A stretch of DNA of 24,809 bases from an uncultured Elusimicrobia bacterium (GTDB lineage Bacteria; Elusimicrobiota; Elusimicrobia; UBA1565), in the NCBI GenBank assembly GCA_964359165.1, contig CAYHRV010000017.1, positions 1-24,809 of the forward strand, written 5' to 3'. This document shows, one piece after another, positions 1,905-15,326 of the stretch. The notes below the pieces were generated by a model, which saw nothing but the letters and a program-made list of their open reading frames with translations, ran no database searches and was not told the DNA's origin. Numbering within the stretch: position 1 is the stretch's first letter; each line of letters starts with the position of its first letter. A program made the position numbers and the translations under genes.

Positions 1905-1927
1905 GCATTCCCCCCGCGGGGGAATGC
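1905..1927 (-). promoter_or_regulatory. GC-clamped stem-loop (10-bp stem, 3-nt loop) ending 5 nt upstream of the GltB-like start codon
   Basis: Plus strand reads GCATTCCCCC-CGC-GGGGGAATGC, which can pair perfectly. It lies between the stop of the upstream gene (1997) and the ATG at 1900. Confidence 0.5.
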
Positions 1928-1996
1928 TCGTGGAGGGGCGTTGTTGCCGTTTCATAAGCCCCTTCCTTATTATTCCCTTTCCGCGATGTATTTTCT

Positions 1997-2668
1997 TCAT
2001 TTTCGTATGCAGGTTCCGCAACTGCCGGTCGTCCCCATGTAGCACATCAAGTCATCGTGCGGTTCCACGCAGGTCGGCTGGACGCTCATGCAGGAGCCGC
2101 AGATGTCCGTCGGCGGCTTGGGGCCGTGGCAGCGCAGGGTGCAGGCCGGGCAGACATACATGCAGCCTCCGCAGCGCCGGCAGCTCTGCGAGGGCTTGTC
2201 GAAAGGGGTGGTGATGCGCCGCTTGGCGCCGCGGCCCACGAAGTCGATGGCCCCGGCCATCATCTGCTCCTTGCACATGCGCACGCAGAGCCCGCAGAGC
2301 ACGCACTCCTCGTCGCGCGGAGGGAAGCGCTGGCGGCCGACGCCCATGAGCGCGGCCAGGTCCTGCAGGACCTTGGAGTTGGGGGCCGTGGAGAGCATGA
2401 GCTCCACGAGCATGCGCCGCGTCTTGAGCACCCGGCGCGAGCCCGTGCGCACGAAGAGCCCTTCCTCCGCCGGATAAGTGCAGGAGCTCACCAGGCGGCC
2501 CCGCTCCCCCTTGCCGATCTCGACTACGCAGAGGCGGCAGCCCCCGTAGGGCGTGAGGCCGTCCATGTGGCAGAGCGTGGGGATCTCCAGCCCCAGGAAG
2601 CGCGCGGCCTCCAGGACCGTGGTCCCGGGCTCCACCGACACATCCAACCCGTCTATTCGCAGATTCAT
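1997..2668 (-). CDS. 2Fe-2S plus two 4Fe-4S iron-sulfur protein resembling the N-terminal domains of NuoG/HndD/FdsA
   Basis: 223 aa. Plant-type 2Fe-2S pattern C-x10-C-x2-C-x13-C near the N-terminus, followed by CVLCGLCVRMC and CRRCGGCMYVCP 4Fe-4S motifs. No catalytic (molybdopterin or H-cluster) domain follows. Confidence 0.75.
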   Translation of the reverse strand: MNLRIDGLDVSVEPGTTVLEAARFLGLEIPTLCHMDGLTPYGGCRLCVVEIGKGERGRLVSSCTYPAEEGLFVRTGSRRVLKTRRMLVELMLSTAPNSKVLQDLAALMGVGRQRFPPRDEECVLCGLCVRMCKEQMMAGAIDFVGRGAKRRITTPFDKPSQSCRRCGGCMYVCPACTLRCHGPKPPTDICGSCMSVQPTCVEPHDDLMCYMGTTGSCGTCIRK

Positions 2669-2673
2669 ATCTC

Positions 2674-2698
2674 AGCGGCCCCCTCGCAGGGGGCTGCT
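2674..2698 (-). promoter_or_regulatory. Stem-loop (10 bp with one G-U pair, 5-nt loop) ending 6 nt upstream of the start codon at 2668
   Basis: Plus strand AGCGGCCCCC-TCGCA-GGGGGCTGCT, in the intercistronic gap between the NuoF-like stop and the NuoG-like start. Confidence 0.45.
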
Positions 2699-2739
2699 TC
2701 CTTCGGGGTGCGGGATCCGTTTCATCAGACGGTCCGTTT

Positions 2740-4656: not shown

Positions 4657-5038
4657 ACTTTTCGTAGAAGGTCTTGAGCTCCAGGTCCGGGTCCTCGAAT
4701 TCGATGAGGTGCTTCTTGCACCCCCGGCGTGAGCAGATCTGTATCGTCCCCCCCTCCGCCAAGGAGAACGCCACCATGGGCGCCTGGCAGATCTCGCAGT
4801 TCCTGGAGCTTTTGAGCCCTTCCTTGCAGTGGGGACAGAACAGGTCGCCGATCTTCCCGTCGGGGCAGACGATGTCCATCTCGACCTTGTAGCTCCCATA
4901 GAGCGAGCTCATGTGGAGCTTCCCCTTCTTCTTGCCGTAGCGGATCTCCACGGTGATGGCGGGGTGGTTGTCGATCTTGCGTTTGGAGTCCATCAAGGAC
5001 TCCGCGCACAGCGGGCACTTGAGTTCGACTTCGATCAT
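4631..5038 (-). CDS. Small Cys-rich (zinc-ribbon/rubredoxin-like) protein of unknown function
   Basis: 135 aa, 9 Cys arranged as CPLC..CPDG..CPHC..CEIC..CSRRGC. Lys-rich and noticeably lower GC than its neighbours. Its ATG overlaps the NuoE-like stop (ATGA), and its 3' end overlaps the NuoF-like start. Confidence 0.55.
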   Translation of the reverse strand: MIEVELKCPLCAESLMDSKRKIDNHPAITVEIRYGKKKGKLHMSSLYGSYKVEMDIVCPDGKIGDLFCPHCKEGLKSSRNCEICQAPMVAFSLAEGGTIQICSRRGCKKHLIEFEDPDLELKTFYEKYGTFFKAH

Positions 5039-5529
5039 TTCTTCGGCGCCTCCGATCTCTTGGCGAGCTTGCGCGCTCCCTGCGGGGTGACCTGGCCGTG
5101 ATATTTCCCGTCGGTGACGAGGACGGGGCCGATGGCGCAGCAGCCCAGGCAGTTGACGGTCTCCAGGGAGTATTCCCCGTCCCCCGTGGTCTCGCCGGGC
5201 CGGACGCCGAGCATTCGGCTGAGCTCGTCGACGACGCGGGTCACGCCGCGCACGTGGCAGGCCGTGCCGATGCAGGCGGTCAGAGTGTGGCGGCCCGGCT
5301 TGGTCAGACGGAACATCTTGTAGAAAGTGGCCACGCCATAGATCTCGGTGATCGGCGCGTCGAGGAACTGGGCCACCTGCCGCAGAGCCTCCTCCGGAAG
5401 ATAACCGAGCTCCTCCTGGATGTCCTGCAGGATGGAGATGAGCTCCCGCGAAAGGCCTTTATAGCGCCCCAGGATCGAATCGAGCTGTTTATCTCCCGAT
5501 TTAAACGGCTTTTTCAAGACAGTTTTCAT
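5035..5529 (-). CDS. NuoE/HoxE/HndA-type thioredoxin-like 2Fe-2S subunit (24 kDa family)
   Basis: 164 aa. CIGTACHVRG....CLGCCAIGP four-Cys pattern and overall NuoE-like sequence. Confidence 0.85.
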   Translation of the reverse strand: MKTVLKKPFKSGDKQLDSILGRYKGLSRELISILQDIQEELGYLPEEALRQVAQFLDAPITEIYGVATFYKMFRLTKPGRHTLTACIGTACHVRGVTRVVDELSRMLGVRPGETTGDGEYSLETVNCLGCCAIGPVLVTDGKYHGQVTPQGARKLAKRSEAPKK

Positions 5530-5587: not shown

Positions 5588-6943
5588 TCAGGCGATTATT
5601 TCTATTGGATGGCCCTTTCTTGAGACCTTTCCGGCGGACCTGGCCGCGAGGAGCGGATCATCAGACTCCATCCCCTCGCGCAGTTCCCAAACGGTAAGCA
5701 TCGGAAGGATGCGAGTGAAGAGCAGAAAGACCAAGAGGAATCCAGCGGCCCACCCCAGGGTGACGGACCATTCCACCCAGGAGGGGCTGTAATGGCCGGG
5801 CCCCCAGGGAAGGAAGGGCCTCGCGCCCGAAGGCACGATGATGGTGTATCTCTCCAACCACATCCCGAGATTCACGGAAAGACCGGCCCATAACAATCGG
5901 CTCTCCAGGGTGCCGATCCGGAAGGCCAGCAAAGGGAATGGGATGGCGAGGCAGAAGATGAGCATGCCCCAGAACCCCGGACCGAATTCTCCGCTCAGCT
6001 TGGCCTGGAACACTTCCATCTCCGCGGCATGCTGTCCATAGAAAGTGGTCAGGAGCTCCACGAAAGTGAAATATCCCCAGAAACAGCAGACCGCCAGGAA
6101 GAATTTTCGCAGGGCCTCGAATTCCGCCTCTCGGATGGCCCATTGGAAGCCGAACGATTTCCGCAGAAGCACCGCGATGGCGGCGAGTCCTCCGAGTCCC
6201 TGGAACGCGGCCCCGATGACGAAATAGGGGCCGATGGCGGCGGAATGCCAGCCGGGCTTGGTCGTCATGCCGAAGATGAATCCGACGTTGGTATGCACCG
6301 AGATGACGAGCGCGAGCAGAACGATGGAAAGGATGCTCATGAGCCGGTGATGGAGCCTCTCCTGGGCTTGGGTTCCCGTCCAGTCCAGGGCCGCCCAGCG
6401 GTAGAATCCACGCTGCCAGGCCGGGACGCCCTGGAGTCGGTCCCGGCAGAGAGCGAAGTCCGGGACGAGCGCGAGGTAGAAGTACAAACAGGACATGAGC
6501 AGATAGGTGGAGATGCACAGCACGTCCCATAGGATCGGCGAGGTCAGATGCGGATAGAGGATGACGTTCAGAAAACGGTCCGGCCGGCCCAGGTCGATGA
6601 TGACGCTGCTAGCCGCGAAGAATAGGCTGGCGATGGTGATGGTCTCCGCTATGCGGGTGAAAGGCCGCCTCCAGGCCGCGTCGGTGATGCGCAGGATGGC
6701 GGAGATGAGCGTGCCCGCGTGCGAGACCCCGATAAAGAAGACGAAGTTGACGATGTAGACTCCCCAGAACACGGGGACGCCGAGCCCGGTGACTTTCAGG
6801 CCGTTGAACACCTGCCAGAGCCAGGCGAGCGCCCCCCAGAGGAACAGGCCGCCCAAGACGGCGGCCGCGATAAGGAAACCCCCTCCCGGCTTGCTCGTCA
6901 GCGGCCGGAGCACCTCCGTCTCCATCTCGTGGATATCCATCAA
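5588..6943 (-). CDS. NrfD/PsrC-family polytopic membrane subunit (quinone-interacting anchor of CISM-type complexes)
   Basis: 451 aa, many hydrophobic helices, family-typical length and composition. The ATGA overlap with the preceding Fe-S subunit stop mirrors psrABC, qrcABCD and act operon layouts. Confidence 0.8.
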   Translation of the reverse strand: MMDIHEMETEVLRPLTSKPGGGFLIAAAVLGGLFLWGALAWLWQVFNGLKVTGLGVPVFWGVYIVNFVFFIGVSHAGTLISAILRITDAAWRRPFTRIAETITIASLFFAASSVIIDLGRPDRFLNVILYPHLTSPILWDVLCISTYLLMSCLYFYLALVPDFALCRDRLQGVPAWQRGFYRWAALDWTGTQAQERLHHRLMSILSIVLLALVISVHTNVGFIFGMTTKPGWHSAAIGPYFVIGAAFQGLGGLAAIAVLLRKSFGFQWAIREAEFEALRKFFLAVCCFWGYFTFVELLTTFYGQHAAEMEVFQAKLSGEFGPGFWGMLIFCLAIPFPLLAFRIGTLESRLLWAGLSVNLGMWLERYTIIVPSGARPFLPWGPGHYSPSWVEWSVTLGWAAGFLLVFLLFTRILPMLTVWELREGMESDDPLLAARSAGKVSRKGHPIEIIA

Positions 6944-7734
6944 CCCTCCCGCAGATAGATCACCTTCGGCTTGGTGCCGAGGTCTTCGAGCATTCGATAC
7001 GCCCGGTGGTCGAGCGAGGCGCGGGACACCTCGCTGCGCGGGTCATGGAGGTCCCCGAAGAGTATCGCCTGGGCCGGACAGGCCTCGACGCAGGCCGGCA
7101 CATAGTCCCCCGGCCGAAGGTCCCGGCCTTCGGAGCGGGTCTTGTCCCGAGCCCTCTGAAGCCGATGGTGGCAGAAGAGGCATTTCTCCACCACCCCTTT
7201 TTCCCGGAGCGAGACGTCCGGATTGGGCGCGAAACCGCCTTCTCCCGGCCATTGGGGGTCTCCCCAATTGAAGAACTTGCAGGTGTAGGGGCAGGCGTTG
7301 ACGCAATAACGGCAGCCGATACATCGGTCGTAGACCTGGCCTACGATGCCCTCCGGGCTGAGAAAGGTCGCCGAGGTGGGACACACCCGTGTGCAGGGCG
7401 GATTGTCGCACTGCTGGCAGGGCATGGGGATGAGACTGCGCCGCACCCGGTCGCCCTCCACCTCGGTGGTAGGGAGTATCTTCAGCCAGCGTATGACCCT
7501 GCCCAGCGCCGCCTCCCGAGGCCCCCCCGGCATCTGGTTGTTCTCGACCGCGCAGCTCACCATGCAGGCCCCGCACGCGGTGCACTTGTCGAGATCGATG
7601 ACCATGCCCCATCTATGGCCGGCCGCCTGGGCTCCATGTCCCGCGGGCGCTGAGTCGGCCGCGGAGAACAGGGAGGAGAAGGCCCGCAGCACCGTTCCCA
7701 AGAAGTTCCTGCGGCCAGCGGGTTCAGGCCGCAT
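6940..7734 (-). CDS. Tat-exported 4x[4Fe-4S] ferredoxin-type subunit (PsrB/NrfC/QrcC/ActB2-like)
   Basis: Twin-arginine motif GRRNFLGTVL. Multiple Fe-S motifs: CTACGACMVSC, CQQCDNPPCTRVCP, CIGCRYCVNACP, CLFCHHR...C. Confidence 0.85.
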   Translation of the reverse strand: MRPEPAGRRNFLGTVLRAFSSLFSAADSAPAGHGAQAAGHRWGMVIDLDKCTACGACMVSCAVENNQMPGGPREAALGRVIRWLKILPTTEVEGDRVRRSLIPMPCQQCDNPPCTRVCPTSATFLSPEGIVGQVYDRCIGCRYCVNACPYTCKFFNWGDPQWPGEGGFAPNPDVSLREKGVVEKCLFCHHRLQRARDKTRSEGRDLRPGDYVPACVEACPAQAILFGDLHDPRSEVSRASLDHRAYRMLEDLGTKPKVIYLREG

Positions 7735-9850
7735 ACACCCTTACCTTGGCCCGCCAAAGAGGCCGACCCGAAGGCTCGAAATTCCGTTTCACGAGCGCGG
7801 CGGGGTTGACGCCCACTCCCAGCGCGTAGCGCCCCATTGCCGTATGCCCCAGGCCCAGAGGCATGGCCACGGTGCTGGGATCGATGCCCGGGAAATACCG
7901 CGCCTTGGCCCGGACTCTTCCCGCGGGGGATTCCACCCAGACCTCCTTTCGGTCCTCGATGCCCAGTCTCTTGGCGGTGTCCGGATGTATCTCCAGCCAG
8001 CTTCCCCATTCCTCCCCCACGTGGATACCCGCCACGCTGTGCAGGTAGGGCAGGTGAGCCCCTTCTCCGAAGGAGAAGGCCAAGGGAACGAAGACTTGGA
8101 GGTCGAGCATATCATCGGAGGGCTCCGCGCGGACCGCGCGGTTGTTGAGCGCTTCGGCCGCGAAATGAAGGGCCGGGAAGGCGGCGCTGACGGTCGCGGC
8201 GGGCACGGCGGCGTAGCGCCGCCAGCCCCCTTCCCTCATCGCGGCCTCGGTCCCGGAACGGCCCGCCGCCTCCCCCAACGCCTCCACGAAATCCTTCCAG
8301 GGGAAAGCCTCGGCGATGCGCCGGTCCCCGAGGGAACGCGCCAGGCGCAGGATGAGGTCCCCGTGATCGCAGGTGTCGTGCATGGGAGCGATCACGGGCG
8401 GCGCGAAGCTCACCACCCCGTCGCCGTCGATGGTCCGGGTGAAGCCGTATTGCCACGCCTCCAGCCCGTGGTGTGGAGGGAGCACCAGGTCCGCCAGTTC
8501 CGAGGTCTCATCCAAAAAAGAAGAGAAGCTCACGATGAATGGGAGCGCACGCAGCGCCTGCCTCCACCGTTCCGGCTCCGGACTCAGGAAAACGGGGTTG
8601 ACCCGCTCGAGCCATAGAAGATCCAAACCGGAGCCCGAACCCAGGGATTCCGGCAGGCGGTGCGCGGAGTTTTCAAGGCGGGACTTAGGAGACGGCAAGC
8701 TCCCGCCGGGCAGCGACAGTTGGTGCCTCTCGGCCTCGCTCCACAGAACGCCTTGCCGCACTCCCACCGAGCCCAGCAGGACGTTGAGGCCATGGACGGC
8801 GACTTGGGTGAAAACCTCCCCGCGATTCGTGATCGCCAGGGCGGGGCGGATGTCGGCCATCTCCCGCGCGAGCTCGGCGATCTTGGCCCGCTCCACTCCC
8901 GTCTGCGCGGACACACTGTCGGGACCGTACTCCCGCAGCACCAGCTCGCGGTATTCCCGGAAGCCCCGAGTCCATCGCTTGACGAACGCCTCGTCATAGA
9001 GGCCTTCCGAAATCAGGATATGCGCCACCCCCAGAGCGAGCACGCCCTCGGTCCCGGGCCGGACCCGGACCCACTCATCGGCCTTGGAGGCCGTCACGGA
9101 TAGGCGCGGCTCGATCTGGACCATGCGGGTCCTGCGCTCCGCGCGCCCCCGCCGCAGGCGGCCGTAGGCCCGCTGGGCCTCGATGGGCGAAGGGAAGGCC
9201 TGAAGCCAGTCCCACCCGAAGGAGACGATGTGGTTGGCGTTGGTCAGGTCGTAGAAGAGCCCTTCCTCGGAGCCGTGCATGAGGCGAAAAGCGTCCGAAG
9301 GCCCCTCGCCCAGAGGCCAGTCCCATTCCCAATAATACGGGGTCCCGAGCGCCCGGGCGAAACGTTTCTGAAGTTCATGGCGGATGTCGCGGATAGGCGC
9401 CGCGAGCATGGCGAGGCGCTCGGGTTTATCGGCATCGAGCACTCCCGAGAGCCGCGTTCGCAGGATTCGCTCCGCTTCGTTCCAGGAGACCCTCTCCCAT
9501 CGCCCTTCCCCCCTCTCGCCCTTTCTCAGGATGGGGAAACGCAGGCGATCGGGATGATAGAGGTCCTGCAGGATGGCGCCGCCCTTGGGGCAGAGGGCTC
9601 CCCCGCTGACCGGATGGCCGGCCTTGCCGGAAACCCCCACCGGCTTGCCTTCCACCACTCGGATGTCCAGCATACAGAGGGCCGGACACAACTTGCAGAC
9701 CGCGGGGCGGCGGACATCGCTCTCCAAGAGCGCCGGCGGCCTTTCCCCCGGCGTAAGAACCCCCGCCCGCAGGGCCTGCGGCAGGGCGCTCGCCGCGCCC
9801 AGCAGCCCTCCCCACTTCAGGAAATTCCGTCTGGATATCTCGGGGTTCAT
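7724..9850 (-). CDS. Tat-exported molybdopterin-oxidoreductase-family large subunit (Psr/Phs/Qrc/ActB1-like)
   Basis: Start taken at ATG 9850 (MNPEISRRNFLKWGG, Tat motif), 5 nt after the cytochrome stop. FS0-type motif C-x2-C-x3-C...C-P-K-G is present. Length ~708 aa. No Cys was seen in the region where Cys/SeCys molybdenum ligands usually sit, so cofactor status is uncertain. Confidence 0.8.
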   Translation of the reverse strand: MNPEISRRNFLKWGGLLGAASALPQALRAGVLTPGERPPALLESDVRRPAVCKLCPALCMLDIRVVEGKPVGVSGKAGHPVSGGALCPKGGAILQDLYHPDRLRFPILRKGERGEGRWERVSWNEAERILRTRLSGVLDADKPERLAMLAAPIRDIRHELQKRFARALGTPYYWEWDWPLGEGPSDAFRLMHGSEEGLFYDLTNANHIVSFGWDWLQAFPSPIEAQRAYGRLRRGRAERRTRMVQIEPRLSVTASKADEWVRVRPGTEGVLALGVAHILISEGLYDEAFVKRWTRGFREYRELVLREYGPDSVSAQTGVERAKIAELAREMADIRPALAITNRGEVFTQVAVHGLNVLLGSVGVRQGVLWSEAERHQLSLPGGSLPSPKSRLENSAHRLPESLGSGSGLDLLWLERVNPVFLSPEPERWRQALRALPFIVSFSSFLDETSELADLVLPPHHGLEAWQYGFTRTIDGDGVVSFAPPVIAPMHDTCDHGDLILRLARSLGDRRIAEAFPWKDFVEALGEAAGRSGTEAAMREGGWRRYAAVPAATVSAAFPALHFAAEALNNRAVRAEPSDDMLDLQVFVPLAFSFGEGAHLPYLHSVAGIHVGEEWGSWLEIHPDTAKRLGIEDRKEVWVESPAGRVRAKARYFPGIDPSTVAMPLGLGHTAMGRYALGVGVNPAALVKRNFEPSGRPLWRAKVRVYAA

Positions 9851-9855
9851 GTCGG

Positions 9856-10362
9856 CTATCGGTGGCAGGCCAGGCAATCGGTGGTGACCCCCTCCTTCTT
9901 ATGGCAGTCCACGCAGGCGGACATGCTCAAGGGCGCCAGCCGGCGCGTCAGCGCGCGCTCCGTCGAAGCCACGTCCCCATGGCAGGCCTTGCAGTCGAGC
10001 TTTCCGTCCCCCGCGTGCCGCTTATGCGAGAAGAGGACATGGCTCGGCGTCCGATAGATCCGCCGCCAGGGGATCTCCTTGCGCTCGCGCAGGAACTCCG
10101 CCAAGTCCTCCGGGGTCCTCGGCGCGGCCTTGCCCGGGTCATGGCAGAGGGCGCAGATGCGCATCTCCGGGATGCCGGCGCGCGCGTCCTCCTTGGCTCC
10201 CGCATGGCACCCGGCGCATTCGATTCCGAAGTCCGCGTGCTTCTTATGGTTGAAGGAAATGGGCTGGGGAGTGCCCCAGGAGCTCCAAGCCCAGAAAAGA
10301 GTCCCGGCCGCGACCAGGGCGACGAAGAGCAGGGACCCCGCGGCCGACAATATCTCCCTCAT
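9856..10362 (-). CDS. Membrane-anchored multiheme cytochrome c (five CxxCH motifs)
   Basis: 168 aa. N-terminal TM helix LLFVALVAAGTLFWAW, then CAGCH, CALCH, CKACH, CVDCH, CLACH. Its position directly upstream of the large subunit resembles QrcA/ActA. Confidence 0.85.
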   Translation of the reverse strand: MREILSAAGSLLFVALVAAGTLFWAWSSWGTPQPISFNHKKHADFGIECAGCHAGAKEDARAGIPEMRICALCHDPGKAAPRTPEDLAEFLRERKEIPWRRIYRTPSHVLFSHKRHAGDGKLDCKACHGDVASTERALTRRLAPLSMSACVDCHKKEGVTTDCLACHR

Positions 10363-10391: not shown

Positions 10392-11276
10392 TTACCCCCC
10401 CGCCTCCGTTTTAGGCGGGCGGCCGAACTCCTTGGCCAGCGCCGTCAGCCCGGACATGGCTCCCAAGCCCATGGTCTCCACGGCGCTGGAGGGGACGACC
10501 ACGATGGTGGAATTCTGCCGCATGCCTTCCAAGAGTATGTTCATGGCCCGAAGGTGCAGGGCCACGGGGTTCTCGGCGTAGGACTGGGAGGCCTGCTTGA
10601 ACTTGCCCGCGATCTGGAGCTCCGAGTCTCCGAGGATGACGCGCGCCTGGCGTTCGCGCTCCGCCTGGGCCTGCATGGACATCGCGTCCTGCAGCGCTTC
10701 GGGGATCTTGACGTCGCGGATCTCCACCGACAGGGCCTGAATGCCCCAAGCCGCGGTCCTTTGCTCGATCATCTGCCGGAGCTTGACGTCTATCTCCTGG
10801 CGGCCGATGAGCATCTTGGCCAGGTCCGTCTCTCCGATCGCGTCGCGCAGAGCGGTCTGGGAGGCCCAGGCGATGGCCTGGCGGTAGTCCTCCACCTCCA
10901 GGGCCGCTTTGACGGGGTCTATGACGCGCCAAAACAGCACGGCGTCCACGTCCACCGGCACGCTGTCCTTGGTGAGGGTGCGCTCCGCGGCGAAAGGCGT
11001 GGTGACCGTCCTCATGTCGATCCAATAGGGGATGGTGTCCAGGCCGGGGGCGACGCCGAATATCCCGGGGCCGCGCAATCCGTGGAATTTGCCGAGCCTC
11101 AGGATGACGGCCTTCTGCCATTGCCGGGCCACGCGCAAGCCCAGGAGCACGAACGCCCCCGCGGCCAAGCCCACAAGAGCCGGCAGGGGGTGTCCCGTGC
11201 GGGCGCTCAAAGCCCCGCCCAGCCCCGCCAGCAATGCGAACAGCGTCAACGTCAATGGATGTATGCCCATCGTCAT
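10392..11276 (-). CDS. SPFH/band-7 (stomatin/prohibitin-like) membrane protein
   Basis: 294 aa. N-terminal TM segments followed by a typical SPFH domain (VILRLGKF...RTLTKD...DAVLFWRV...EIRDVKIP...). A TAGGAGG RBS overlaps the upstream stop. Confidence 0.85.
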   Translation of the reverse strand: MTMGIHPLTLTLFALLAGLGGALSARTGHPLPALVGLAAGAFVLLGLRVARQWQKAVILRLGKFHGLRGPGIFGVAPGLDTIPYWIDMRTVTTPFAAERTLTKDSVPVDVDAVLFWRVIDPVKAALEVEDYRQAIAWASQTALRDAIGETDLAKMLIGRQEIDVKLRQMIEQRTAAWGIQALSVEIRDVKIPEALQDAMSMQAQAERERQARVILGDSELQIAGKFKQASQSYAENPVALHLRAMNILLEGMRQNSTIVVVPSSAVETMGLGAMSGLTALAKEFGRPPKTEAGG

Positions 11277-11282: not shown

Positions 11283-11813
11283 CTAATCCGTCGTTCCCTC
11301 GTCCGCAGCGCCCTCCCCGCTCTTTCCGGGCGGCCCCTTGATGCTGAAGAGATATTTCGCCAAGTCCTCCGTCTCCTCGGCGGTCAGTATCTTCCGCCAG
11401 GACGGCATGTCCAGGGGTGGTTCGGGCTCGGCCTCGTCGAGTTTGGCCGGGTGCCCCCCCTTAAGAAGCTTGCCCTTTAGGTCGGCGCGGGTGAAGGCAT
11501 CGGCCAAGTCCTCGAGGTTAGGGACCATCCCCTCGGGGTCGGCGTTCGGGTTCTTGACCCCGCCCCGGCCCTGGGGGCCGTGGCAGACCCCGCAGCGCAA
11601 GGCCCGGTAGATGCGGCGTCCCCGGAGGATGTCCTTATCCCACGCGCTTTCGGACCCGGCCGGTTCCGCCGCGAATGCCTGGGTCGTGGGCGTTATGGCC
11701 CACCGGGGGCTCCATAACCGCGCCCGCCAGCCCAGGAAGCCGTAGAACCCGAAGATGCCGGCCCAGGCGCCCGCGACCAAAACGATCAGCCCGAGCGCTC
11801 CCGCGTCTTTCAT
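11283..11813 (-). CDS. Membrane-anchored monoheme class-I c-type cytochrome
   Basis: 176 aa. N-terminal hydrophobic anchor, single CGVCHG heme motif, downstream Met (DMPSW) as a candidate axial ligand. Confidence 0.75.
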   Translation of the reverse strand: MKDAGALGLIVLVAGAWAGIFGFYGFLGWRARLWSPRWAITPTTQAFAAEPAGSESAWDKDILRGRRIYRALRCGVCHGPQGRGGVKNPNADPEGMVPNLEDLADAFTRADLKGKLLKGGHPAKLDEAEPEPPLDMPSWRKILTAEETEDLAKYLFSIKGPPGKSGEGAADEGTTD

Positions 11814-11825: not shown

Positions 11826-12263
11826 CTACTTGCCCCCCGCTTCCTTTTCCTTGAGTTTCCTATCGATCAGCTCCTTCTTGCGGACCGAGGAATCGTAGAT
11901 CAGGAAGTCGATGATCTTCGTGGCGCTTTTCGCGTTGAGGCCGGAACGCTTCTTTTTCTGCATCTTCTTGACATAAGGGTCCCACTCCTCGGGCAAGGCA
12001 TAGGGCGAATTGACGGCTCGCGCCAAGGTGTGGCATTTGGAGCACCGCACGGCGAAAGTCTTGTAATTTTCCTGCTGTTCCTGGGGATATTTTGAGACGT
12101 CTATCTCAATGGGCCCCTTGTCCCAGGGGAACTCCTTTTCGCCGGCTTTCGCCGCCTCGTCCTTGGCGGTCTCTTTCTTGGCCTCGTTCTGAGCGATGGC
12201 GGCTGAAACAGCGAGTCCGAACACAAAGCACAGGCTCAAGAAGATTTCCCTATTCCCCCTCAT
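11826..12263 (-). CDS. Secreted monoheme c-type cytochrome (Lys-rich C-terminus)
   Basis: The track ORF extends to 12452, but the internal ATG at 12263 is preceded by a strong AAAGGAGG RBS and starts a signal peptide MRGNREIFLSLCFVFGLAVSAAIA. Single CSKCH motif. Confidence 0.7.
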   Translation of the reverse strand: MRGNREIFLSLCFVFGLAVSAAIAQNEAKKETAKDEAAKAGEKEFPWDKGPIEIDVSKYPQEQQENYKTFAVRCSKCHTLARAVNSPYALPEEWDPYVKKMQKKKRSGLNAKSATKIIDFLIYDSSVRKKELIDRKLKEKEAGGK

Positions 12264-12464: not shown

Positions 12465-13742
12465 CTAGAAGCCCAACTCCACCTGCGCCGTCCAGCGGGT
12501 GTCCTTCGTCTGCTTGACGCCCGCCTTATTGTCCGAGAGTTCATCGTAATACTCCACGAAGGTCCGGACGTTCTCCATGGGGTAATAAGCCAAGCTGGCG
12601 ACGAGGTGGTTCTGCTTCCTGTCGAGGAACTTATCCTTGACGCTGTCGAAACGGACCAGGGGGACGATCCACGGGCGCTCATTCTTCTTGAAGGTATAGA
12701 ACGCCTCGCCGTATCCTCCCGTATTGTCCGCTTTCAGCACCCCGGTCGCGTCCGCCTCTTTCTTGGCGCTCATGAGCGCCGCTCGGATGCCGAAATCCTT
12801 GAACTCCGCCAGGGCGTCCACGGCGAAGGCCTGGATCTTGTTGATCGGCGTTCCCGTCTCGTTCTTGCTCGTCAGGTCATCCTTCCCATACTGGAAGTAG
12901 CCGCCCAAGGCCAGCCCCTTAAGCGTGTCGGCCACCAGCCTGACATTGTAGTTCGGCGGGCCGTAGCCCTCCTGGGCCTTGGTGCCGGCCGTCGCGGCGG
13001 CCGCTCCCCCTCCGACTCCGAACGCGTAGCCCAGGGCCCCTACCCCCTCCCGACTCAACTCACCCCGCAAGGCCAGGTACTGCTGGTCCAGCATGAGCAG
13101 GGTTCGAGCGTCGCTGGCCCGGCGCGTCCAGCCGCTGTGGGCAAGCGTTTGATACGGGTCGACGCGGTGCAGGAAGTCGCCGAAACCGGCTATCACATTG
13201 AAATACGGATTCGGGTGGTAGCCCAAGGAGAGGTCCGCGACCTCCATCTCGAACCCCGTCCCGGCGTCGTCCTCCGCTTCGATCTCCGTGAAGTAGGAGA
13301 AGTTCTTGGCCACGCTTCCGTCGGCCACGAACAGCTCCAGCTCATGAAGGGCCCTGTTCTGGATCTTCCGGGGAGTCCCGCTTGATTTTTGCTTGTCGAT
13401 CGGCCGCGCCTTGACCAGCCCCCCCCAGGGGAAATCTTTGGGGAGCATCATGTCGCTGGCCTCGATCCGGACTCCTTCTTCTTTCGCTCTCTCCCGGACA
13501 AAGCCGTTGTTCTTGAACTCACGGCCGTAGTCGTTGAGGAGCGGATAGGCAGCGTGGCACTGGGAACAGCTGATGCCGTATTTCCTGGAGAAGGCCGGCA
13601 CCGCCTGCGCCTGCGCCACCGCGCCCGGCCGCACCGGACACAAGCCCAATATCTTCTGGCTCAACGGCGGCAGCACCCAAGCCGCCGCCAGAACCGCCAG
13701 CGCGAATACCGCAGTGAACCGGCCCCTTCTTTGACTCATCAT
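12465..13742 (-). CDS. Cyc2-like fused cytochrome-porin: signal peptide, a single CxxCH heme motif, then an outer-membrane beta-barrel
   Basis: Start chosen at the ATGATG at 13742, with GGAGGG directly upstream. Signal peptide with AQAQA cleavage-type site. CSQCH lies within ~20 residues of the mature N-terminus. The next ~380 aa have alternating Gly/aromatic-rich beta-strand character and a C-terminal Phe (VELGF), typical of OM beta-barrels. Size (~425 aa) matches the Cyc2 family. Confidence 0.65.
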   Translation of the reverse strand: MMSQRRGRFTAVFALAVLAAAWVLPPLSQKILGLCPVRPGAVAQAQAVPAFSRKYGISCSQCHAAYPLLNDYGREFKNNGFVRERAKEEGVRIEASDMMLPKDFPWGGLVKARPIDKQKSSGTPRKIQNRALHELELFVADGSVAKNFSYFTEIEAEDDAGTGFEMEVADLSLGYHPNPYFNVIAGFGDFLHRVDPYQTLAHSGWTRRASDARTLLMLDQQYLALRGELSREGVGALGYAFGVGGGAAAATAGTKAQEGYGPPNYNVRLVADTLKGLALGGYFQYGKDDLTSKNETGTPINKIQAFAVDALAEFKDFGIRAALMSAKKEADATGVLKADNTGGYGEAFYTFKKNERPWIVPLVRFDSVKDKFLDRKQNHLVASLAYYPMENVRTFVEYYDELSDNKAGVKQTKDTRWTAQVELGF

Positions 13743-13800: not shown

Positions 13801-13818
13801 CGCAACGCCTTGGCCGGG
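13801..13818 (-). promoter_or_regulatory. Candidate sigma-54 (-24/-12) promoter for the Cyc2-like operon
   Basis: Minus strand reads cccGGCCAaggcgTTGCg. GG and GC have the canonical spacing of TGGCAC-N5-TTGCW. It lies ~60 nt upstream of the ATG at 13742, and a sigma-54 activator gene is adjacent. Confidence 0.45.
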
Positions 13819-13904
13819 AAGACCGCGCATTAAATAAGGATTAAACGCGGATGAAGCCCGCCGTTTTCAACCGGCTTGGAAACGGATTCAGGTCTATTGG
13901 AAGA

Positions 13905-15326
13905 TCAGCGGAAGGATTGGGGGCTTAGGGCGTGCTTCTTGAGATACCAATAGAAGTTGCTCAGCGGCAGACCGCAGTCCTCGGCCGCGGCCTTGGCGTT
14001 GCCGTGCCGGCGCCTGAGCGCGGCTTCGAGGAACTCCTTCTCGAAGGAGTCGAGATGCCTCTTTTTCATGGAGGCGAAACCTTCCTCCTTCGTGGAGGCT
14101 GGGTCTCCAGAAGCGGCCGCCTCCGCGGGACCCTCGCCTTCCGGCCGGGAAAGGGCGGCGGCCACCAGGAATTCCGGCAGGTCGGACGCGGCAAGGGTCT
14201 CCCCCTCGCAGAGCAGGACCGATTTCTTGAGCACATTGATCAGTTCGCGTATGTTCCCGGGCCAGGCATAGTGCGTGAGGATGTCGGCGGCGGGCTCCTC
14301 GATGCGCGACACGGCCCTGCCCATCTCGCGGCAGATGCGCGGAAGGTAATGGCGCGCGAGCAGGGGGATGTCCTCGCTCCGCTCCCTGAGCGAAGGCAGG
14401 CGCAGGGAGATCACGTTGAGGCGGTAATAGAGGTCATCGCGGAATCTGCCGGCCTTGACCTCCGCTTCCACGTCCCTATTGGTGGCCGCGATGATGCGCA
14501 AGTCCACGCCGCGCATCTCCCGGCCTCCCACCCGCCGGATCTGCCGTTCCTGCAGAGCGCGCAGGAGCTTGGCCTGCAGGGAGAGAGGAAGCTCGCAGAC
14601 CTCATCGAGGAAGAAGGTGCCGCGGTCGGCCAGCTCCATGAGCCCCGGCGAGGCCCGGGACGCGTCGGTGAAGGCTCCGCGTTCATGGCCGAAGAACTCG
14701 TTTTCCAGGAGATTCTCCGGGATGGCGCCGCAGTCCACCGGGACGAAGTGGCCGCTCCGATTGGACCGGGCGTGGAGCCGGCGGGCGATGAGCTCCTTCC
14801 CGGTGCCGGACTCTCCCAGGATGAACACGTCGGCGGGGGTGGCGGCGACCTTGTCGGCCAGCTCGACGACCTTGAGCAGGGAGGGAGCTTTTCCCACGAT
14901 CTCCACGGGGACGTATTCCCGCGCCACGTGCCTGGCCAGAAGGCGGTTCTCGTCCTTAAGGTGCCGCTCCTCGAGGGCGCGGCGGATGCGGGAGACGAGG
15001 TCGGCGGGATGAAAGGGCTTGAGCACGAAATCCATGGCCCCGGCCCGCAGGGCTTCCAGCGCCGAATCGAACTCCGGGAAGGCCGTGATCATGATGACGG
15101 GCAGGGACGGATCCGAGGATTTCGCGGCCTTGAGCAGTTCCAATCCGGTGAGGCCCGGCATCCTGATGTCGGCCACGAGGAGGTCGAAACTCTCTTCCTT
15201 GACGCGCTCCAGCGCCGCATCCCCCCGCTGTTCCGGGAAGACGCGCCAACCCTCGTGGGAGAGGGCCGCGCCGCAGGTCGAAAGCATGTCGGCTTCGTCG
15301 TCGACGAGCAGGATCTTGGCGCTCAT
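13905..15326 (-). CDS. Sigma-54-dependent response regulator (NtrC family: REC + AAA+ + Fis-type HTH)
   Basis: 473 aa. REC motifs (LLVDDE, DLLVADIRMPGLTG), Walker A GESGTGKE, ENEFFGHERGAFTDA (a variant of GAFTGA), arginine finger region, C-terminal HTH. Confidence 0.9.
   Translation of the reverse strand: MSAKILLVDDEADMLSTCGAALSHEGWRVFPEQRGDAALERVKEESFDLLVADIRMPGLTGLELLKAAKSSDPSLPVIMITAFPEFDSALEALRAGAMDFVLKPFHPADLVSRIRRALEERHLKDENRLLARHVAREYVPVEIVGKAPSLLKVVELADKVAATPADVFILGESGTGKELIARRLHARSNRSGHFVPVDCGAIPENLLENEFFGHERGAFTDASRASPGLMELADRGTFFLDEVCELPLSLQAKLLRALQERQIRRVGGREMRGVDLRIIAATNRDVEAEVKAGRFRDDLYYRLNVISLRLPSLRERSEDIPLLARHYLPRICREMGRAVSRIEEPAADILTHYAWPGNIRELINVLKKSVLLCEGETLAASDLPEFLVAAALSRPEGEGPAEAAASGDPASTKEEGFASMKKRHLDSFEKEFLEAALRRRHGNAKAAAEDCGLPLSNFYWYLKKHALSPQSFR

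What the first reader, a model, noticed from the sequence alone, without database searches (positions are those of the whole stretch)
5588..10362. Four-gene cytochrome / molybdopterin-like / Fe-S / NrfD module whose catalytic subunit has FS0 but no obvious Cys molybdenum ligand
The gene order (multiheme cytochrome c, molybdopterin-family subunit, 4Fe-4S subunit, NrfD) matches QrcABCD and resembles PsrABC or ACIII. The large subunit keeps a complete FS0 motif (C-x2-C-x3-C...CPKG) and a Tat signal. I found no Cys in the ~100-residue stretch downstream where Cys/SeCys molybdenum ligands normally lie; the only other Cys is far C-terminal (DTCDHGD). It could be a Ser/Asp-ligated enzyme. It could also be a cofactor-less quinone:cytochrome oxidoreductase like QrcB or ActB. 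Placed after Cyc2, the second option would suit a cytochrome-c:quinone electron shuttle in either direction.
Basis: partly seen in the sequence, partly recalled or inferred. Interest (0 to 1): 0.65.

Follow-up and report, generated by a model that had tools for sequence, protein, structure and literature searches.

The report
Minimal ACIII-like complex in cyc2 operon
The four genes encode a stripped-down relative of the bacterial "alternative complex III"/Qrc respiratory complexes, whose large subunit looks like a molybdenum enzyme but has lost the metal-binding residue; in a group of uncultured Elusimicrobiota it shares a conserved gene cluster with the iron-oxidising outer-membrane cytochrome Cyc2, which supports a proposed but untested electron route from iron to the quinone pool.

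Summary
On the minus strand lie a pentahaem cytochrome (A), a Tat-exported molybdopterin-fold protein (B, 708 aa), a four-cluster Fe-S protein (C) and an NrfD-type membrane protein (D). B has five Cys: four form FS0 (CX2CX3CX27C) and one lies in DTCDHGD. The metal-ligand Cys/Sec of three solved enzymes aligns to Leu180/Gly181. No Ser or Asp is conserved there.

A, C and D are closest to ActA, ActB2 and ActC of solved alternative complex III. All four subunits score below NCBI's Qrc cut-offs. In 65 related loci, none of 6 with the canonical HxS[ILV]C ligand motif has the pentahaem gene, against 46 of 59 without it.

I read it as a molybdenum-free cytochrome c:quinone module. It is neither canonical Qrc nor canonical ACIII: it keeps FS0 and all 16 cluster Cys, has Asp/Asp/Ile where ActC has His139/Asp169/Asp253, and lacks ActD/E/F.

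The upstream 424-aa gene meets the published Cyc2 criteria I could check. The order cyc2, two monohaem cytochromes, SPFH, ABCD recurs in Elusimicrobia contigs. cyc2 also precedes a canonical ACIII on two other contigs.

Direction of electron flow and absence of pterin are inferred, not shown. This is a new variant of a known kind, of moderate interest.

The parts
15323..16861 (-). Membrane sensor histidine kinase. With the next gene it is syntenic with the cluster in relatives.
   Evidence: Pfam HisKA and HATPase_c. Homologues lie in the same position in L001, L002 and L004 at 51-65% identity.
13905..15326 (-). NtrC-type sigma-54-dependent response regulator.
   Evidence: Pfam Response_reg, Sigma54_activat and AAA_lid_14. 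Conserved upstream of the cluster in L001, L002 and L004.
13863..13883 (-). Imperfect palindrome GTTTCCAAGCCGGTTGAAAAC, a candidate enhancer-binding site.
   Evidence: Read. L001 has two copies of TTCCAAGCGATTGGAA at the equivalent place. The function is inferred only.
13801..13816 (-). Sigma-54-like -24/-12 element CGGCCAAGGCGTTGCG (GG-N10-GC spacing) upstream of cyc2.
   Evidence: L001 has CGGCCGAAACGTTGCC in the same position. A strict consensus scan with up to 2 mismatches gave nothing above chance, so the evidence is weak.
12465..13739 (-). Cyc2-type fused monohaem cytochrome-porin (424 aa).
   Evidence: It has a single CSQCH, AVPAFSRKY upstream of it and PLL 4 aa downstream. These compare with the criteria AXPXFAR[Q/K][T/Y], PXL and >=365 aa (PMC8406198). 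The AF2 model has pLDDT 83.6 and shows an N-terminal helix (consistent with a signal peptide), a small helical domain and 16 strands. Foldseek hits are 16-strand porins including OprP and OprO.
11826..12263 (-). Small monohaem cytochrome c with an N-terminal hydrophobic segment that looks like a signal peptide (mono1, about 145 aa), a likely soluble periplasmic carrier.
   Evidence: CSKCH and a weak SorB-family hit. Homologues are 55-68% identical in L001, L002, L004 and L005. A 68%-identical homologue lies next to cyc2 in L084.
11283..11813 (-). Membrane-anchored class I monohaem cytochrome c (mono2, 176 aa), a possible functional stand-in for ActE.
   Evidence: Pfam Cytochrom_C 1.5e-9 and weak similarity to CcoP haem domains. 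It is fused in frame to the pentahaem A subunit in L005 (364 aa, 6 CXXCH).
10392..11276 (-). SPFH/Band-7 (stomatin/HflK-like) membrane protein, a possible scaffold.
   Evidence: Pfam Band_7 2.1e-32. It is the most conserved gene of the cluster, 84% identical to L001.
9856..10362 (-). Subunit A: ActA/QrcA-like pentahaem cytochrome c with an N-terminal TM anchor.
   Evidence: 5 CXXCH. phmmer against ActA chains 6btm_A 1.2e-20, 6lod_A 2.8e-18, 8k9e_A 9.9e-18 and 6f0k_A 4.1e-16. NCBIfam QrcA scores 90 bits against a cut-off of 180.
7724..9850 (-). Subunit B: Tat-exported Mo-bisPGD-fold protein with FS0 but no metal ligand (ActB1/QrcB-like).
   Evidence: NCBIfam QrcB scores 286 bits (cut-off 440) and PhsA 247. 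Foldseek TM to the query is 0.81-0.83 for ArrA, 0.78 for PsrA and 0.69-0.70 for ActB.
9590..9697 (-). FS0 [4Fe-4S] motif C52-x2-C55-x3-C59-x27-C87-P-K-G (708-aa numbering).
   Evidence: All four Cys are kept in nearly all 70 aligned orthologues.
9302..9325 (-). Loop WDWPLGEG, which replaces the HSS(V/I)C metal-ligand motif.
   Evidence: ArrA and acetylene hydratase Cys align to Leu180, and the Fdh ligand residue (X) aligns to Gly181. FWEW-x-W is conserved in the Elusimicrobia clade and no Cys/Ser/Asp is conserved there.
6940..7734 (-). Subunit C: four-cluster ferredoxin-type protein (ActB2/QrcC/DsrO-like) with its own RRNFL twin-arginine motif. The start codon is uncertain.
   Evidence: phmmer against the ActB B2 domain: 6f0k_B 1.3e-59 and 6lod_B 8.6e-51. 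NCBIfam QrcC scores 264 (cut-off 400) and DsrO 196 (cut-off 200). It has 17 Cys, 16 of them in four cluster motifs. The 264-aa product is not the public gene call.
7291..7323 (-). Third Cys group, C138-IG-C141-RY-C144-VNA-C148. The second Cys is kept, so the quinone-proximal cluster is predicted to be [4Fe-4S].
   Evidence: R. marinus ActB has CIGTRYC at this place. ActB is reported to carry one [3Fe-4S] and three [4Fe-4S] clusters (PMC5928083); the HDD-type loci have Thr here and the window clade has Cys.
5588..6940 (-). Subunit D: ActC-like NrfD-family membrane subunit that would hold the quinone site and a proton path.
   Evidence: phmmer against ActC 8k9e_C 6.7e-61, 6f0k_C 1.5e-57, 6lod_C 7.8e-57 and 6btm_C 1.5e-51, aligned over residues 22-430. 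The QrcD model scores only 35 bits and DsrP 96.

Best explanation
The four genes encode a membrane-bound, molybdenum-free cytochrome c:quinone oxidoreductase of the ACIII/Qrc type, in a minimal ActA-ActB1-ActB2-ActC form.

Proposed layout (inferred from homology to solved ACIII):
- D holds a quinone pocket on the periplasmic side, next to the proximal Fe-S cluster of C.
- The five haems of A form a wire from that cluster to periplasmic cytochromes.
- B is a Psr/Arr-derived cap with no catalytic metal site. It probably still binds the FS0 cluster at the far end of the Fe-S chain.
- D keeps nearly all residues of both ActC proton half-channels, so quinone chemistry is probably coupled to the proton-motive force.

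In this organism the module sits in one conserved gene cluster with a Cyc2 porin-cytochrome, a likely soluble monohaem cytochrome, a membrane-anchored monohaem cytochrome and an SPFH protein. A weak sigma-54-like promoter lies upstream of cyc2.

The most likely job is to carry electrons taken from Fe(II) by Cyc2 through the cytochromes into the quinone pool, with help from the proton-motive force where needed.

Shown here: gene content, missing ligand residue, homology of each subunit, conserved synteny and Cyc2 features.
Inferred: absence of pterin, the order of electron carriers, the direction of flow and the proton coupling.
For: 1. No ligand. B has only the four FS0 Cys plus one distant Cys. 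The ligand residues of ArrA, acetylene hydratase and an F420 formate dehydrogenase align to Leu180/Gly181. In 18 close homologues the segment reads FWEW-x-W-x-[LF] with no conserved Cys/Ser/Asp.
2. Family-wide pattern. 0 of 6 loci with a canonical HxS[ILV]C motif have an upstream ActA-like gene, against 46 of 59 loci without it (Fisher p = 3e-4).
3. Subunit homology to solved ACIII. D matches ActC at 1e-51 to 7e-61, C matches ActB2 at 1e-44 to 1e-59, and A matches ActA at 1e-16 to 1e-20.
4. Proton path. D keeps 14 of 14 cytoplasmic-side and 5 of 6 periplasmic-side half-channel residues of R. marinus ActC, including Arg395, and keeps Asp169 of the quinol site (residue list from PMC5928083).
5. 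Precedent. The QrcB and ActB1 homologues are experimentally cofactor-less (PMC6303296 and PMC5928083).
6. Link to Cyc2. The Cyc2 criteria I could check are met. The order cyc2 - cytochromes - SPFH - ABCD recurs in L001, L002 and L004. Locus tags and matching contig lengths suggest it on at least five more Elusimicrobia contigs. cyc2 plus a mono1 homologue also sits directly upstream of a canonical fused-ActB ACIII on L084 and L085.
7. Carrier contact. mono2 is fused to A in L005, which argues that the two proteins touch.
8. Selection. B is 58-65% identical across the clade, similar to its neighbours. It is therefore a maintained protein and not a decaying gene.
Against: - B is far less degenerate than ActB1. 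Its model is closer to ArrA and PsrA (TM 0.78-0.83) than to ActB (0.69-0.70). It keeps 59 of 77 positions shared by Cys-ligand relatives and solved Mo/W enzymes, and it keeps the CPKG lysine. Sequence cannot rule out a bound pterin or a metal site without a protein ligand.
- Two of the three polar residues of the ActC quinol site differ (His139 to Asp, Asp253 to Ile). The quinone chemistry may therefore differ from ACIII.
- ActD, ActE and ActF are absent from the cluster.
- Nothing in the sequence fixes the direction of electron flow.
- The quinone type and the terminal oxidases of the organism are unknown.
- The ligand/pentahaem correlation is not corrected for phylogeny. Two loci (L021, L071) combine a pentahaem gene with a Cys at or next to the ligand column.
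Confidence: 0.55

Rival explanations
1. This is the same molybdenum-free complex running in the ACIII direction. It oxidises quinol and reduces the monohaem cytochromes. These then feed a terminal oxidase, or feed Cyc2 for reduction of an extracellular or periplasmic acceptor.
For: A, C and D are closest to ACIII, which is a quinol:cytochrome c oxidoreductase (PMC5928083). Both proton half-channels proposed for pumping in ActC are conserved. Qrc and ACIII are reported to catalyse opposite reactions on the same scaffold, and Qrc is reversible in vivo (PMC6303296).
Against: No oxidase genes lie in the cluster here or in L001, L002 or L004. The Cyc2 that has been tested oxidises Fe(II) (PMC8406198). 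The quinone-proximal cluster is predicted to be [4Fe-4S], not the +140 mV [3Fe-4S] of ACIII. The His/Asp/Asp quinol triad of ActC is replaced by Asp/Asp/Ile.
Confidence: 0.27
2. B is a working Mo/W-bisPGD enzyme, a terminal reductase or oxidase of the Psr/Phs/Arr group. The metal would be held by a non-Cys residue, or by no protein side chain as in arsenite oxidase. FS0 and the C clusters would link it to quinone through D.
For: FS0, the CPKG lysine, the Tat signal and most family-conserved positions are intact. The fold is closest to ArrA and PsrA. C keeps four full [4Fe-4S] motifs as in PsrB-type subunits. Arsenite oxidase shows that a protein ligand is not strictly required; this point comes from my own knowledge and was not tested here.
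Against: No Cys, Ser or Asp is conserved at or beside the ligand column. The segment differs completely between subclades (WDWPLG, NQFQWEG, NPARGSEG, YQPFDEAV), which does not fit an active site. The canonical ligand motif and the pentahaem gene are mutually exclusive in the sampled loci. The best curated-model match is the cofactor-less QrcB. The Elusimicrobia clade has lost 18 positions that the Cys-ligand relatives share with solved enzymes.
Confidence: 0.08
3. The module is a general periplasmic cytochrome:quinone hub with no link to iron, as suggested by the homologous four-gene modules of Thermodesulfobacteriota and Acidobacteriota that sit among multihaem cytochromes. The Cyc2-like porin-cytochrome would handle some other small redox-active solute.
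For: Homologous ABCD modules in other phyla have no cyc2 nearby and often neighbour tetra- or decahaem cytochromes. Many Cyc2 homologues occur in organisms not known to oxidise iron (PMC4643136). L005, a close relative, has no cyc2 within 10 kb.
Against: The Cyc2-specific motif is present. The cyc2 linkage recurs with two different ACIII architectures. An Elusimicrobiota MAG carrying Cyc2 was reported from the Fe(II)-rich emergence of an acid mine drainage site (PMC8357290).
Confidence: 0.1

Closest known systems
Alternative complex III (ActABCDEF; Rhodothermus marinus 6F0K, Flavobacterium johnsoniae 6BTM, Roseiflexus 6LOD, Chloroflexus 8K9E)
   Same: Both have a pentahaem ActA-like cytochrome with an N-terminal anchor, a Mo-bisPGD-like domain without a metal ligand, a four-cluster Fe-S module and an ActC-type NrfD subunit. 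19 of the 20 proposed proton-channel residues are conserved.
   Different: B1 and B2 are separate genes, and each has its own twin-arginine motif. B1 keeps the FS0 Cys motif, whereas R. marinus B1 has no prosthetic group. The proximal cluster is predicted to be [4Fe-4S], not [3Fe-4S]. The quinol-site triad is Asp/Asp/Ile instead of His/Asp/Asp. There is no ActD, ActE or ActF. In a neighbour-joining tree D falls in the sister clade of canonical ActC.
QrcABCD menaquinone reductase of sulfate-reducing Desulfobacterota
   Same: Both have four genes in the same order and a multihaem cytochrome. The Mo-bisPGD homologue with no ligand gives the best curated-model hits for A, B and C. The proposed role, cytochrome c to quinone, matches.
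   Different: Every subunit is below NCBIfam's Qrc cut-off: 90/180, 286/440, 264/400 and 35/570. D is ActC-like, not QrcD-like. QrcB is described as having no redox cofactors and QrcC as having a proximal [3Fe-4S] cluster. Here FS0 and all 16 cluster Cys are present. The host is Elusimicrobiota and the gene context is cyc2, not a sulfate reducer with cytochrome c3.
ACIII-like act clusters of neutrophilic iron oxidisers (actAB1B2CDEF of Gallionellaceae and Zetaproteobacteria; Kato et al. 2015, PMC4643136)
   Same: Both have a split actB1/actB2, with the same CX2CX3CX27C motif in actB1. Both occur in organisms that carry cyc2, and both have the proposed role of passing electrons from cytochromes to quinone.
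   Different: Those clusters have seven genes including actDEF. By the locus tags in that paper, they are not adjacent to cyc2. Here only four genes are present and they share a conserved gene cluster with cyc2. I could not retrieve their sequences, so no direct comparison was made.
Polysulfide/thiosulfate/arsenate reductases (PsrABC 2VPW, PhsABC, ArrAB 6CZ7)
   Same: B has the Tat signal, FS0 and an overall fold with TM 0.78-0.83 to these enzymes. C has four [4Fe-4S] motifs. D is an NrfD-family subunit.
   Different: Leu replaces the Cys ligand. A pentahaem cytochrome gene is added. Relatives that keep HSSIC lack that cytochrome.

Membership tests
QrcABCD | Each subunit reaches the curated NCBIfam equivalog cut-off (QrcA 180, QrcB 440, QrcC 400, QrcD 570 bits). 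| tested here: not met
   Scores are 90, 286, 264 and 35 bits. None of 64 homologues of B appears to reach the QrcB cut-off. The best E-value is 1.9e-110, which I estimate at about 370 bits.
QrcABCD | QrcB has no redox cofactor (PMC13059093, PMC6303296). | tested here: not met
   The complete FS0 motif C-x2-C-x3-C-x27-C-P-K-G is present and conserved. Cluster occupancy itself cannot be tested from sequence.
QrcABCD | The quinone-proximal cluster in QrcC is [3Fe-4S] (PMC6303296). | tested here: not met
   The third Cys group keeps its second Cys (CIGCRYC). This is a prediction from sequence.
QrcABCD | The membrane subunit belongs to the QrcD clade. | tested here: not met
   The QrcD model scores 35 bits, whereas ActC chains score 179-210 bits.
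Alternative complex III | A pentahaem ActA with an N-terminal transmembrane helix. | tested here: met
   5 CXXCH. phmmer gives 4e-16 to 1e-20 against four solved ActA chains, aligned over residues 5-160.
Alternative complex III | An ActC-type 10-helix NrfD subunit with conserved proton half-channels. | tested here: met
   E-values of 1.5e-51 to 6.7e-61 against four ActC chains, aligned end to end. 14 of 14 and 5 of 6 channel residues are kept.
Alternative complex III | The quinol-site triad His139/Asp169/Asp253 of ActC. | tested here: not met
   The window has Asp117/Asp140/Ile223. The whole clade reads D-D-[IV], whereas canonical-type loci read H-D-D.
Alternative complex III | The B1 domain has no prosthetic group, and B2 has one [3Fe-4S] plus three [4Fe-4S] clusters (PMC5928083). 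| tested here: not met
   The FS0 Cys motif is present in B, and all 16 cluster Cys are present in C.
Alternative complex III | ActD, ActE and ActF are present (six subunits conserved across species). | tested here: not met
   There is no gene between D and the NuoE-like gene (58-nt gap). No second NrfD or ActD is present in the window cluster. mono2 may stand in for ActE but has no detectable similarity to it.
Psr/Phs/Arr-type Mo-bisPGD reductases | A Cys or Sec molybdenum ligand in the HSS(V/I)C segment. | tested here: not met
   Leu180/Gly181 align to the ligand residues of 6cz7_A, 2e7z_A and 9t1s_L. There is no Cys between residues 88 and 493 (708-aa numbering).
Psr/Phs/Arr-type Mo-bisPGD reductases | Bound bis-MGD cofactor with Mo or W. 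| not testable with these tools
   59 of 77 family-conserved positions are kept and 18 are lost. This needs ICP-MS or a structure.
Psr/Phs/Arr-type Mo-bisPGD reductases | Tat signal, FS0 motif and the four-domain fold. | tested here: met
   Pfam TAT_signal and Molybdop_Fe4S4. AF2 model pLDDT 88, with TM 0.81-0.83 to ArrA and 0.78 to PsrA.
Cyc2 fused cytochrome-porin (upstream gene) | Signal peptide, a single CXXCH, the AXPXFAR[Q/K][T/Y] motif upstream, PXL 4 aa downstream, and length >=365 aa (PMC8406198). | tested here: met
   The sequence reads AVPAFSRKY-GIS-CSQCH-AAY-PLL. It has one substitution (FSR for FAR), and the family consensus is AVPAFARKY. The protein is 424 aa. The gap between the motif and CXXCH is 3 residues by my count, against '5 amino acids upstream' in the paper. 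No signal-peptide predictor was run; the AF2 model shows an N-terminal helix.
Cyc2 fused cytochrome-porin (upstream gene) | A 16-stranded porin with structural similarity to OprO/OprP. | tested here: met
   The AF2 model has 16 strands. Foldseek gives OprP 2o4v TMq 0.55 and OprO 4rjx TMq 0.56, among 16-strand porins.
Cyc2 fused cytochrome-porin (upstream gene) | A match to a FeGenie Cyc2 cluster HMM, or Fe(II) oxidase activity. | not tested
   The HMMs are not available here. Profile searches returned only unnamed metagenomic proteins.

The most novel reading that the evidence does not exclude
The conserved Elusimicrobiota cluster (cyc2, a likely soluble cytochrome, an anchored cytochrome, an SPFH scaffold and ABCD, possibly under sigma-54 control) encodes a complete, self-contained Fe(II):quinone oxidoreductase pathway reaching from the outer membrane to the quinone pool. 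Its ABCD core would be a surviving intermediate between Psr-type molybdoenzymes and ACIII/Qrc. It keeps FS0, four [4Fe-4S] clusters, an Arr/Psr-like fold and the ancestral Asp/Asp/Ile quinone site. It has already lost the metal ligand and gained the ActA haem wire. FS0 in B could then be a working second electron entry or exit, rather than a relic.
Probability: 0.25. Interest if true: 0.75.

Novelty: new variant of a known kind. Interest (0 to 1): 0.5.

Why it matters
How neutrophilic iron oxidisers move electrons from the outer-membrane oxidase Cyc2 to the quinone pool is unresolved. That step is needed to make NADH by reverse electron flow. ACIII has been proposed for it, and its placement was called "highly speculative" (PMC4643136).

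Here cyc2, two candidate carrier cytochromes and an ACIII-like complex sit in one tightly spaced, conserved gene cluster. cyc2 is also linked to a canonical ACIII on two other contigs. This is guilt-by-association evidence for the proposed route, and it defines a compact gene set that could be expressed and tested.

The module also documents a widespread subfamily with only four genes. It combines Psr-like features (FS0, all-[4Fe-4S], near-intact fold) with ACIII-like ones (ActA, ActC). That combination bears on how cofactor-less "pseudo-molybdoenzyme" respiratory complexes arose.

The module extends a predicted iron-linked respiratory trait to Elusimicrobiota, a phylum first known from fermenters.

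Tried and rejected
- NCBIfam alone suggested Qrc. I rejected this as a family assignment after PDB searches showed that A, C and D are nearer to ACIII and that all Qrc cut-offs are missed.
- The Ser/Asp-ligated enzyme idea found no conserved candidate residue.
- I tried to link the Cyc2-like protein to named Cyc2 of known iron oxidisers by sequence, profile and full-HMMER searches and by cluster look-ups. These returned only unnamed metagenomic or Elusimicrobia proteins. Membership therefore rests on published motif and structure criteria.
- The afdb50 fold library was not available.
- The original Qrc paper (PMC2906268) is not held. Qrc properties are taken from later papers of the same laboratory.
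- A strict sigma-54 consensus scan gave no more hits than chance. Only a relaxed GG-N10-GC search found a site, which is shared with L001, so I treat it as weak evidence.
- I considered the downstream HoxE/F/U-like genes as part of the system and dropped them, because they are absent downstream of D in L001, L002 and L004.
- mono2 shows no sequence similarity to ActE.
- Rfam found nothing in the window.
- I could not obtain reference QrcB, ActB1 from iron oxidisers, or Cyc2 sequences. No reference phylogeny of B was built.

Full report
**1. The observation.** The window is GC-rich (about 65%), and the finding's genes lie on the minus strand.
- A is 10362..9856: 168 aa, five CXXCH motifs and an N-terminal hydrophobic helix.
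- B is 9850..7724, 708 aa from ATG.
- C is 7734..6940, 264 aa.
- D is 6940..5588, 450 aa.

Spacing is tight: a 5-nt gap between A and B, an 11-nt overlap between B and C, and a TGATG stop/start overlap between C and D. The public gene calls for this same 24,809-nt contig give exactly the 168-, 708- and 450-aa products.

Pfam assigns cytochrome c7/c3 families to A. It assigns TAT_signal, Molybdop_Fe4S4, Molybdopterin and Molydop_binding to B, 4Fe-4S families to C and NrfD to D.

B has five Cys only. In the 717-aa numbering they are 61, 64, 68 and 96, which form C-x2-C-x3-C-x27-C-P-K-G, and 503 in DTCDHGD.

**2. What each subunit resembles.** Against NCBIfam the best models are QrcA (90 bits, cut-off 180), QrcB (286, cut-off 440; PhsA is next at 247) and QrcC (264, cut-off 400; DsrO 196, cut-off 200). 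For D the best are DsrP (96) and QrcD (35, cut-off 570). No curated cut-off is reached.

Against solved structures the picture shifts towards alternative complex III.
- D matches the four solved ActC chains at 1.5e-51 to 6.7e-61, aligned over residues 22-430.
- C matches the B2 half of ActB at 6e-44 to 1.3e-59.
- A matches ActA at 4e-16 to 1.2e-20.
- B is nearer to true molybdoenzymes: ArrA 1.8e-52, acetylene hydratase 1.8e-35 and PsrA 1.4e-29, against ActB at 2.9e-17.
- An AlphaFold model of B (pLDDT 88) superposes best on ArrA (TM 0.81-0.83) and PsrA (0.78), and less well on ActB (0.69-0.70).

**3. The metal ligand.** In the HMMER alignments the Cys of ArrA's HSSVC segment and the Cys of acetylene hydratase's MYMCIG segment both fall on Leu180 of B (708-aa numbering). 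The residue printed as X in the F420-dependent formate dehydrogenase falls on the adjacent Gly181. That these residues are the metal ligands is established knowledge of those enzymes and was not tested here.

The local sequence is WEWDWPLGEG. In the 17 closest homologues (56-65% identity, all those with names from Elusimicrobia MAGs) it reads FWEW-x-W-x-[LF]-x. The flanking Asp and Glu of the window are not conserved. I find no candidate Cys, Sec, Ser or Asp ligand.

B is not a wreck, however. Among 77 alignment columns shared by eight Cys-ligand relatives and the solved-enzyme fragments, it keeps 59. The FS0 Cys and the lysine after the fourth Cys are retained. Sequence alone therefore cannot prove that pterin is absent.

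**4. Family-wide comparison.** A scan of species-representative genomes returned 80 loci. I extracted the A/B/C/D orthologues from them.

None of the six loci whose B carries a canonical HxS[ILV]C motif, and which have enough upstream sequence to judge, has an ActA-like gene. Of the 59 loci without the motif, 46 have one (Fisher p = 3e-4). This test is not corrected for phylogeny. L021 and L071 are exceptions, with a Cys at or next to the column in a non-canonical context.

The loci that carry the pentahaem gene fall into two kinds.
- **Canonical-like.** This kind is seen mainly in Acidobacteriaceae. D has His/Asp/Asp at the positions of R. marinus ActC His139/Asp169/Asp253. C has Thr in place of the second Cys of the third cluster group, as in R. 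marinus CIGTRYC, which predicts a [3Fe-4S] cluster. ActD/ActE-like genes follow D.
- **Four-gene type.** This kind includes the window and many modules from Thermodesulfobacteriota, Acidobacteriota, Gemmatimonadota, Methylomirabilota and Armatimonadota. D has Asp/Asp/[Ile/Val]. C usually keeps all 16 cluster Cys. It stops after four genes.

Both kinds keep the FS0 Cys in B.

In a neighbour-joining tree of D, without bootstrap, the His/Asp/Asp sequences group with the solved ActC chains. The Asp/Asp/[Ile/Val/Leu] sequences form the sister clade. That clade also holds some Anaerolineae three-gene modules that lack A.

Mapped onto R. marinus ActC (33% identity), the window's D keeps all 14 residues of the proposed cytoplasmic half-channel. 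It keeps 5 of 6 residues of the periplasmic one, including the Arg395 equivalent, and the hydrophobic pocket residues Trp82, Ile86 and Phe89. His139 becomes Asp117 and Asp253 becomes Ile223 (residue lists from PMC5928083).

**5. Surroundings.** Upstream on the same strand, reading in the direction of transcription, lie:
- a sensor kinase and an NtrC-type sigma-54 activator;
- a 424-aa protein with a single haem motif;
- a small monohaem cytochrome with an N-terminal hydrophobic segment (mono1);
- a membrane-anchored class I monohaem cytochrome (mono2);
- an SPFH/Band-7 protein;
- then A-D.

*The 424-aa protein meets the published Cyc2 criteria I could check* (PMC8406198). It has a single CXXCH, and AVPAFSRKY upstream of it. 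The family consensus is AVPAFARKY and the published motif is AXPXFAR[Q/K][T/Y]. It has PLL four residues downstream and is longer than 365 aa. Its model shows an N-terminal helix consistent with a signal peptide; no signal-peptide predictor was run. The model has pLDDT 83.6 and 16 β-strands. It matches 16-strand porins, including OprP and OprO.

*Synteny.* The same order (kinase, regulator, cyc2, mono1, mono2, SPFH, A, B, C, D) is found in L001, L002 and L004. Locus tags (A3G41_00320 for B and A3G41_00345 for Cyc2) and matching contig lengths of hits indicate it on at least five more Elusimicrobia contigs.

*Supporting details.*
- In L005, mono2 and A are one 364-aa, six-haem protein.
- On two unassigned metagenome contigs (L084, L085), a Cyc2 homologue (33-35% identical) and, on L084, a mono1 homologue (68% identical) sit directly upstream of a canonical-type ACIII. 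That complex has a monohaem-ActA fusion, a 969-974-aa fused ActB that still has the FS0 Cys pattern, an ActC with His/Asp/Asp, an ActD (PF11821) and a seven-haem cytochrome.
- ABCD modules of other phyla have no cyc2 within 10 kb.
- A sigma-54-like GG-N10-GC element (CGGCCAAGGCGTTGCG) and an upstream palindrome precede cyc2 in the window. They have counterparts in L001. This is weak evidence, because a strict consensus scan was not above chance.

*Downstream genes.* The HoxE/F/U-like genes downstream of D are not separated from it by a recognisable terminator. They are absent from that position in relatives.

*Host.* All named close homologues come from Elusimicrobia MAGs, and proteins at least 90% identical to the window's NuoE-like gene are named Elusimicrobiota.

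**6. How it most likely works.** By homology to solved ACIII, D would bind quinone at the periplasmic side, next to the proximal cluster of C. The haem wire of A branches from that cluster towards periplasmic cytochromes. B caps the Fe-S chain.

I infer the chain Cyc2, then mono1, then mono2, then A, then the proximal Fe-S cluster, then quinone in D. The conserved ActC-type half-channels would handle the protons. This direction is the one proposed for ACIII in iron oxidisers (PMC4643136).

It also fits three observations: the tested Cyc2 oxidises Fe(II), no oxidase gene lies in the cluster, and the predicted low-potential-type [4Fe-4S] proximal cluster replaces the +140 mV [3Fe-4S] of ACIII. 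None of this fixes the direction. Qrc and ACIII run opposite reactions on the same scaffold, and Qrc is reversible.

That the second Cys of the third Cys group decides between [3Fe-4S] and [4Fe-4S] at the quinone-proximal site is established for DmsB and NarH. This comes from my own knowledge; the relevant Rothery and Weiner paper appears in the reference list seen.

**7. Comparison and membership.** The module works like Qrc/ACIII but is a member of neither as currently defined.
- Against Qrc, it misses all curated cut-offs, has an ActC-type membrane subunit, and keeps FS0 and a fourth Cys where Qrc has no cofactor and a [3Fe-4S] cluster.
- Against ACIII, it lacks ActD/E/F, the His/Asp/Asp site and the [3Fe-4S] motif, and it has split B subunits, each with its own twin-arginine motif.
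- The nearest described relatives in concept are the actAB1B2CDEF clusters of Gallionellaceae and Zetaproteobacteria. Their actB1 has the same CX2CX3CX27C motif. I could not retrieve their sequences to compare.
- Cyc2 in an Elusimicrobiota MAG (PMC8357290) and ACIII in groundwater Elusimicrobia (bioRxiv 10.1101/765248) have each been reported. The papers I read do not describe the two as one gene cluster.

**8. Verdict.** The subunit without a ligand is not surprising in itself, because QrcB and ActB1 are known precedents. Three things are new:
- a four-gene subfamily with mixed Psr-like and ACIII-like characters;
- its conserved placement in a cyc2 gene cluster in Elusimicrobiota;
- the recurrence of the cyc2-ACIII linkage with a second architecture.

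I rate it a new variant of a known kind, with interest 0.5. The main uncertainties are whether B binds pterin or only FS0, the direction of electron flow, and whether iron is the physiological substrate.

Noticed in passing
window 10392-11276 (-): An SPFH/Band-7 (stomatin/HflK-like) gene sits between the monohaem cytochromes and the pentahaem subunit. It is the most conserved gene of the cluster (84% identical to L001, 75-76% to L002 and L004). SPFH genes also lie near ABCD modules in L058 (55%) and L033 (37%). It may act as a membrane scaffold for the complex.
   Followed up: partly
window 323-5529 (-): Directly downstream of D there is a HoxE/NuoE-like gene, a NuoF-like gene, a HoxU-like 2Fe-2S/4Fe-4S protein and a 525-aa protein with a glutamate-synthase FMN domain. 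Together they resemble a soluble NAD(P)H diaphorase module. No terminator was found between D and this block, but the block is not found downstream of D in L001, L002 or L004.
   Followed up: partly
window 4631-5038 (-): A 135-aa Cys-rich ORF (several CxxC pairs, zinc-ribbon-like) lies between the NuoE-like and NuoF-like genes. It matches no Pfam or NCBIfam family.
   Followed up: no
L005:8816-9910 (+): The membrane-anchored monohaem cytochrome and the pentahaem subunit are fused into one 364-aa, six-haem protein. In this locus the SPFH gene has moved downstream of D and no cyc2 lies within 10 kb.
   Followed up: partly
L004:12942-16133 (+): This Elusimicrobia relative has two tandem NrfD paralogues (444 and 438 aa) after C, followed by a 173-aa monohaem cytochrome. 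The arrangement recalls the ActC/ActF pair plus ActE.
   Followed up: no
L084:9001-19395 and L085:9001-19266 (+): On these unassigned metagenome contigs a Cyc2 homologue with a perfect AVPAFARKY motif directly precedes a canonical-type ACIII. That complex has a monohaem-ActA fusion, a fused 969-974-aa ActB with the FS0 Cys pattern, ActC, ActD and a 782-aa seven-haem cytochrome. L084 also has a mono1 homologue after cyc2.
   Followed up: partly
window 6940-7734 (-), Cys152 of C: The C subunit of the Elusimicrobia clade has a 17th Cys, four residues after the third cluster motif. Every other clade has Val, Ile, Arg or Ala there. C also has its own RRNFL twin-arginine motif in addition to the one in B.
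   Followed up: no
L009, L028, L030, L039, L042, L048, L054, L064 (B orthologues): Related three-gene B-C-D modules, mostly from Chloroflexota, keep an H(S/N/G)SIC ligand motif and lack the pentahaem gene. They are presumably working Psr/Phs-like enzymes. The D subunits of some fall in the same clade as the window's D.
   Followed up: partly
window 20214-24671 (-): Arginine-biosynthesis genes lie here: a 749-aa ORF (possibly over-extended) whose C-terminal part (residues 313-688) matches argininosuccinate lyase, an acetylglutamate kinase, and an N-acetylornithine carbamoyltransferase.
   Followed up: no
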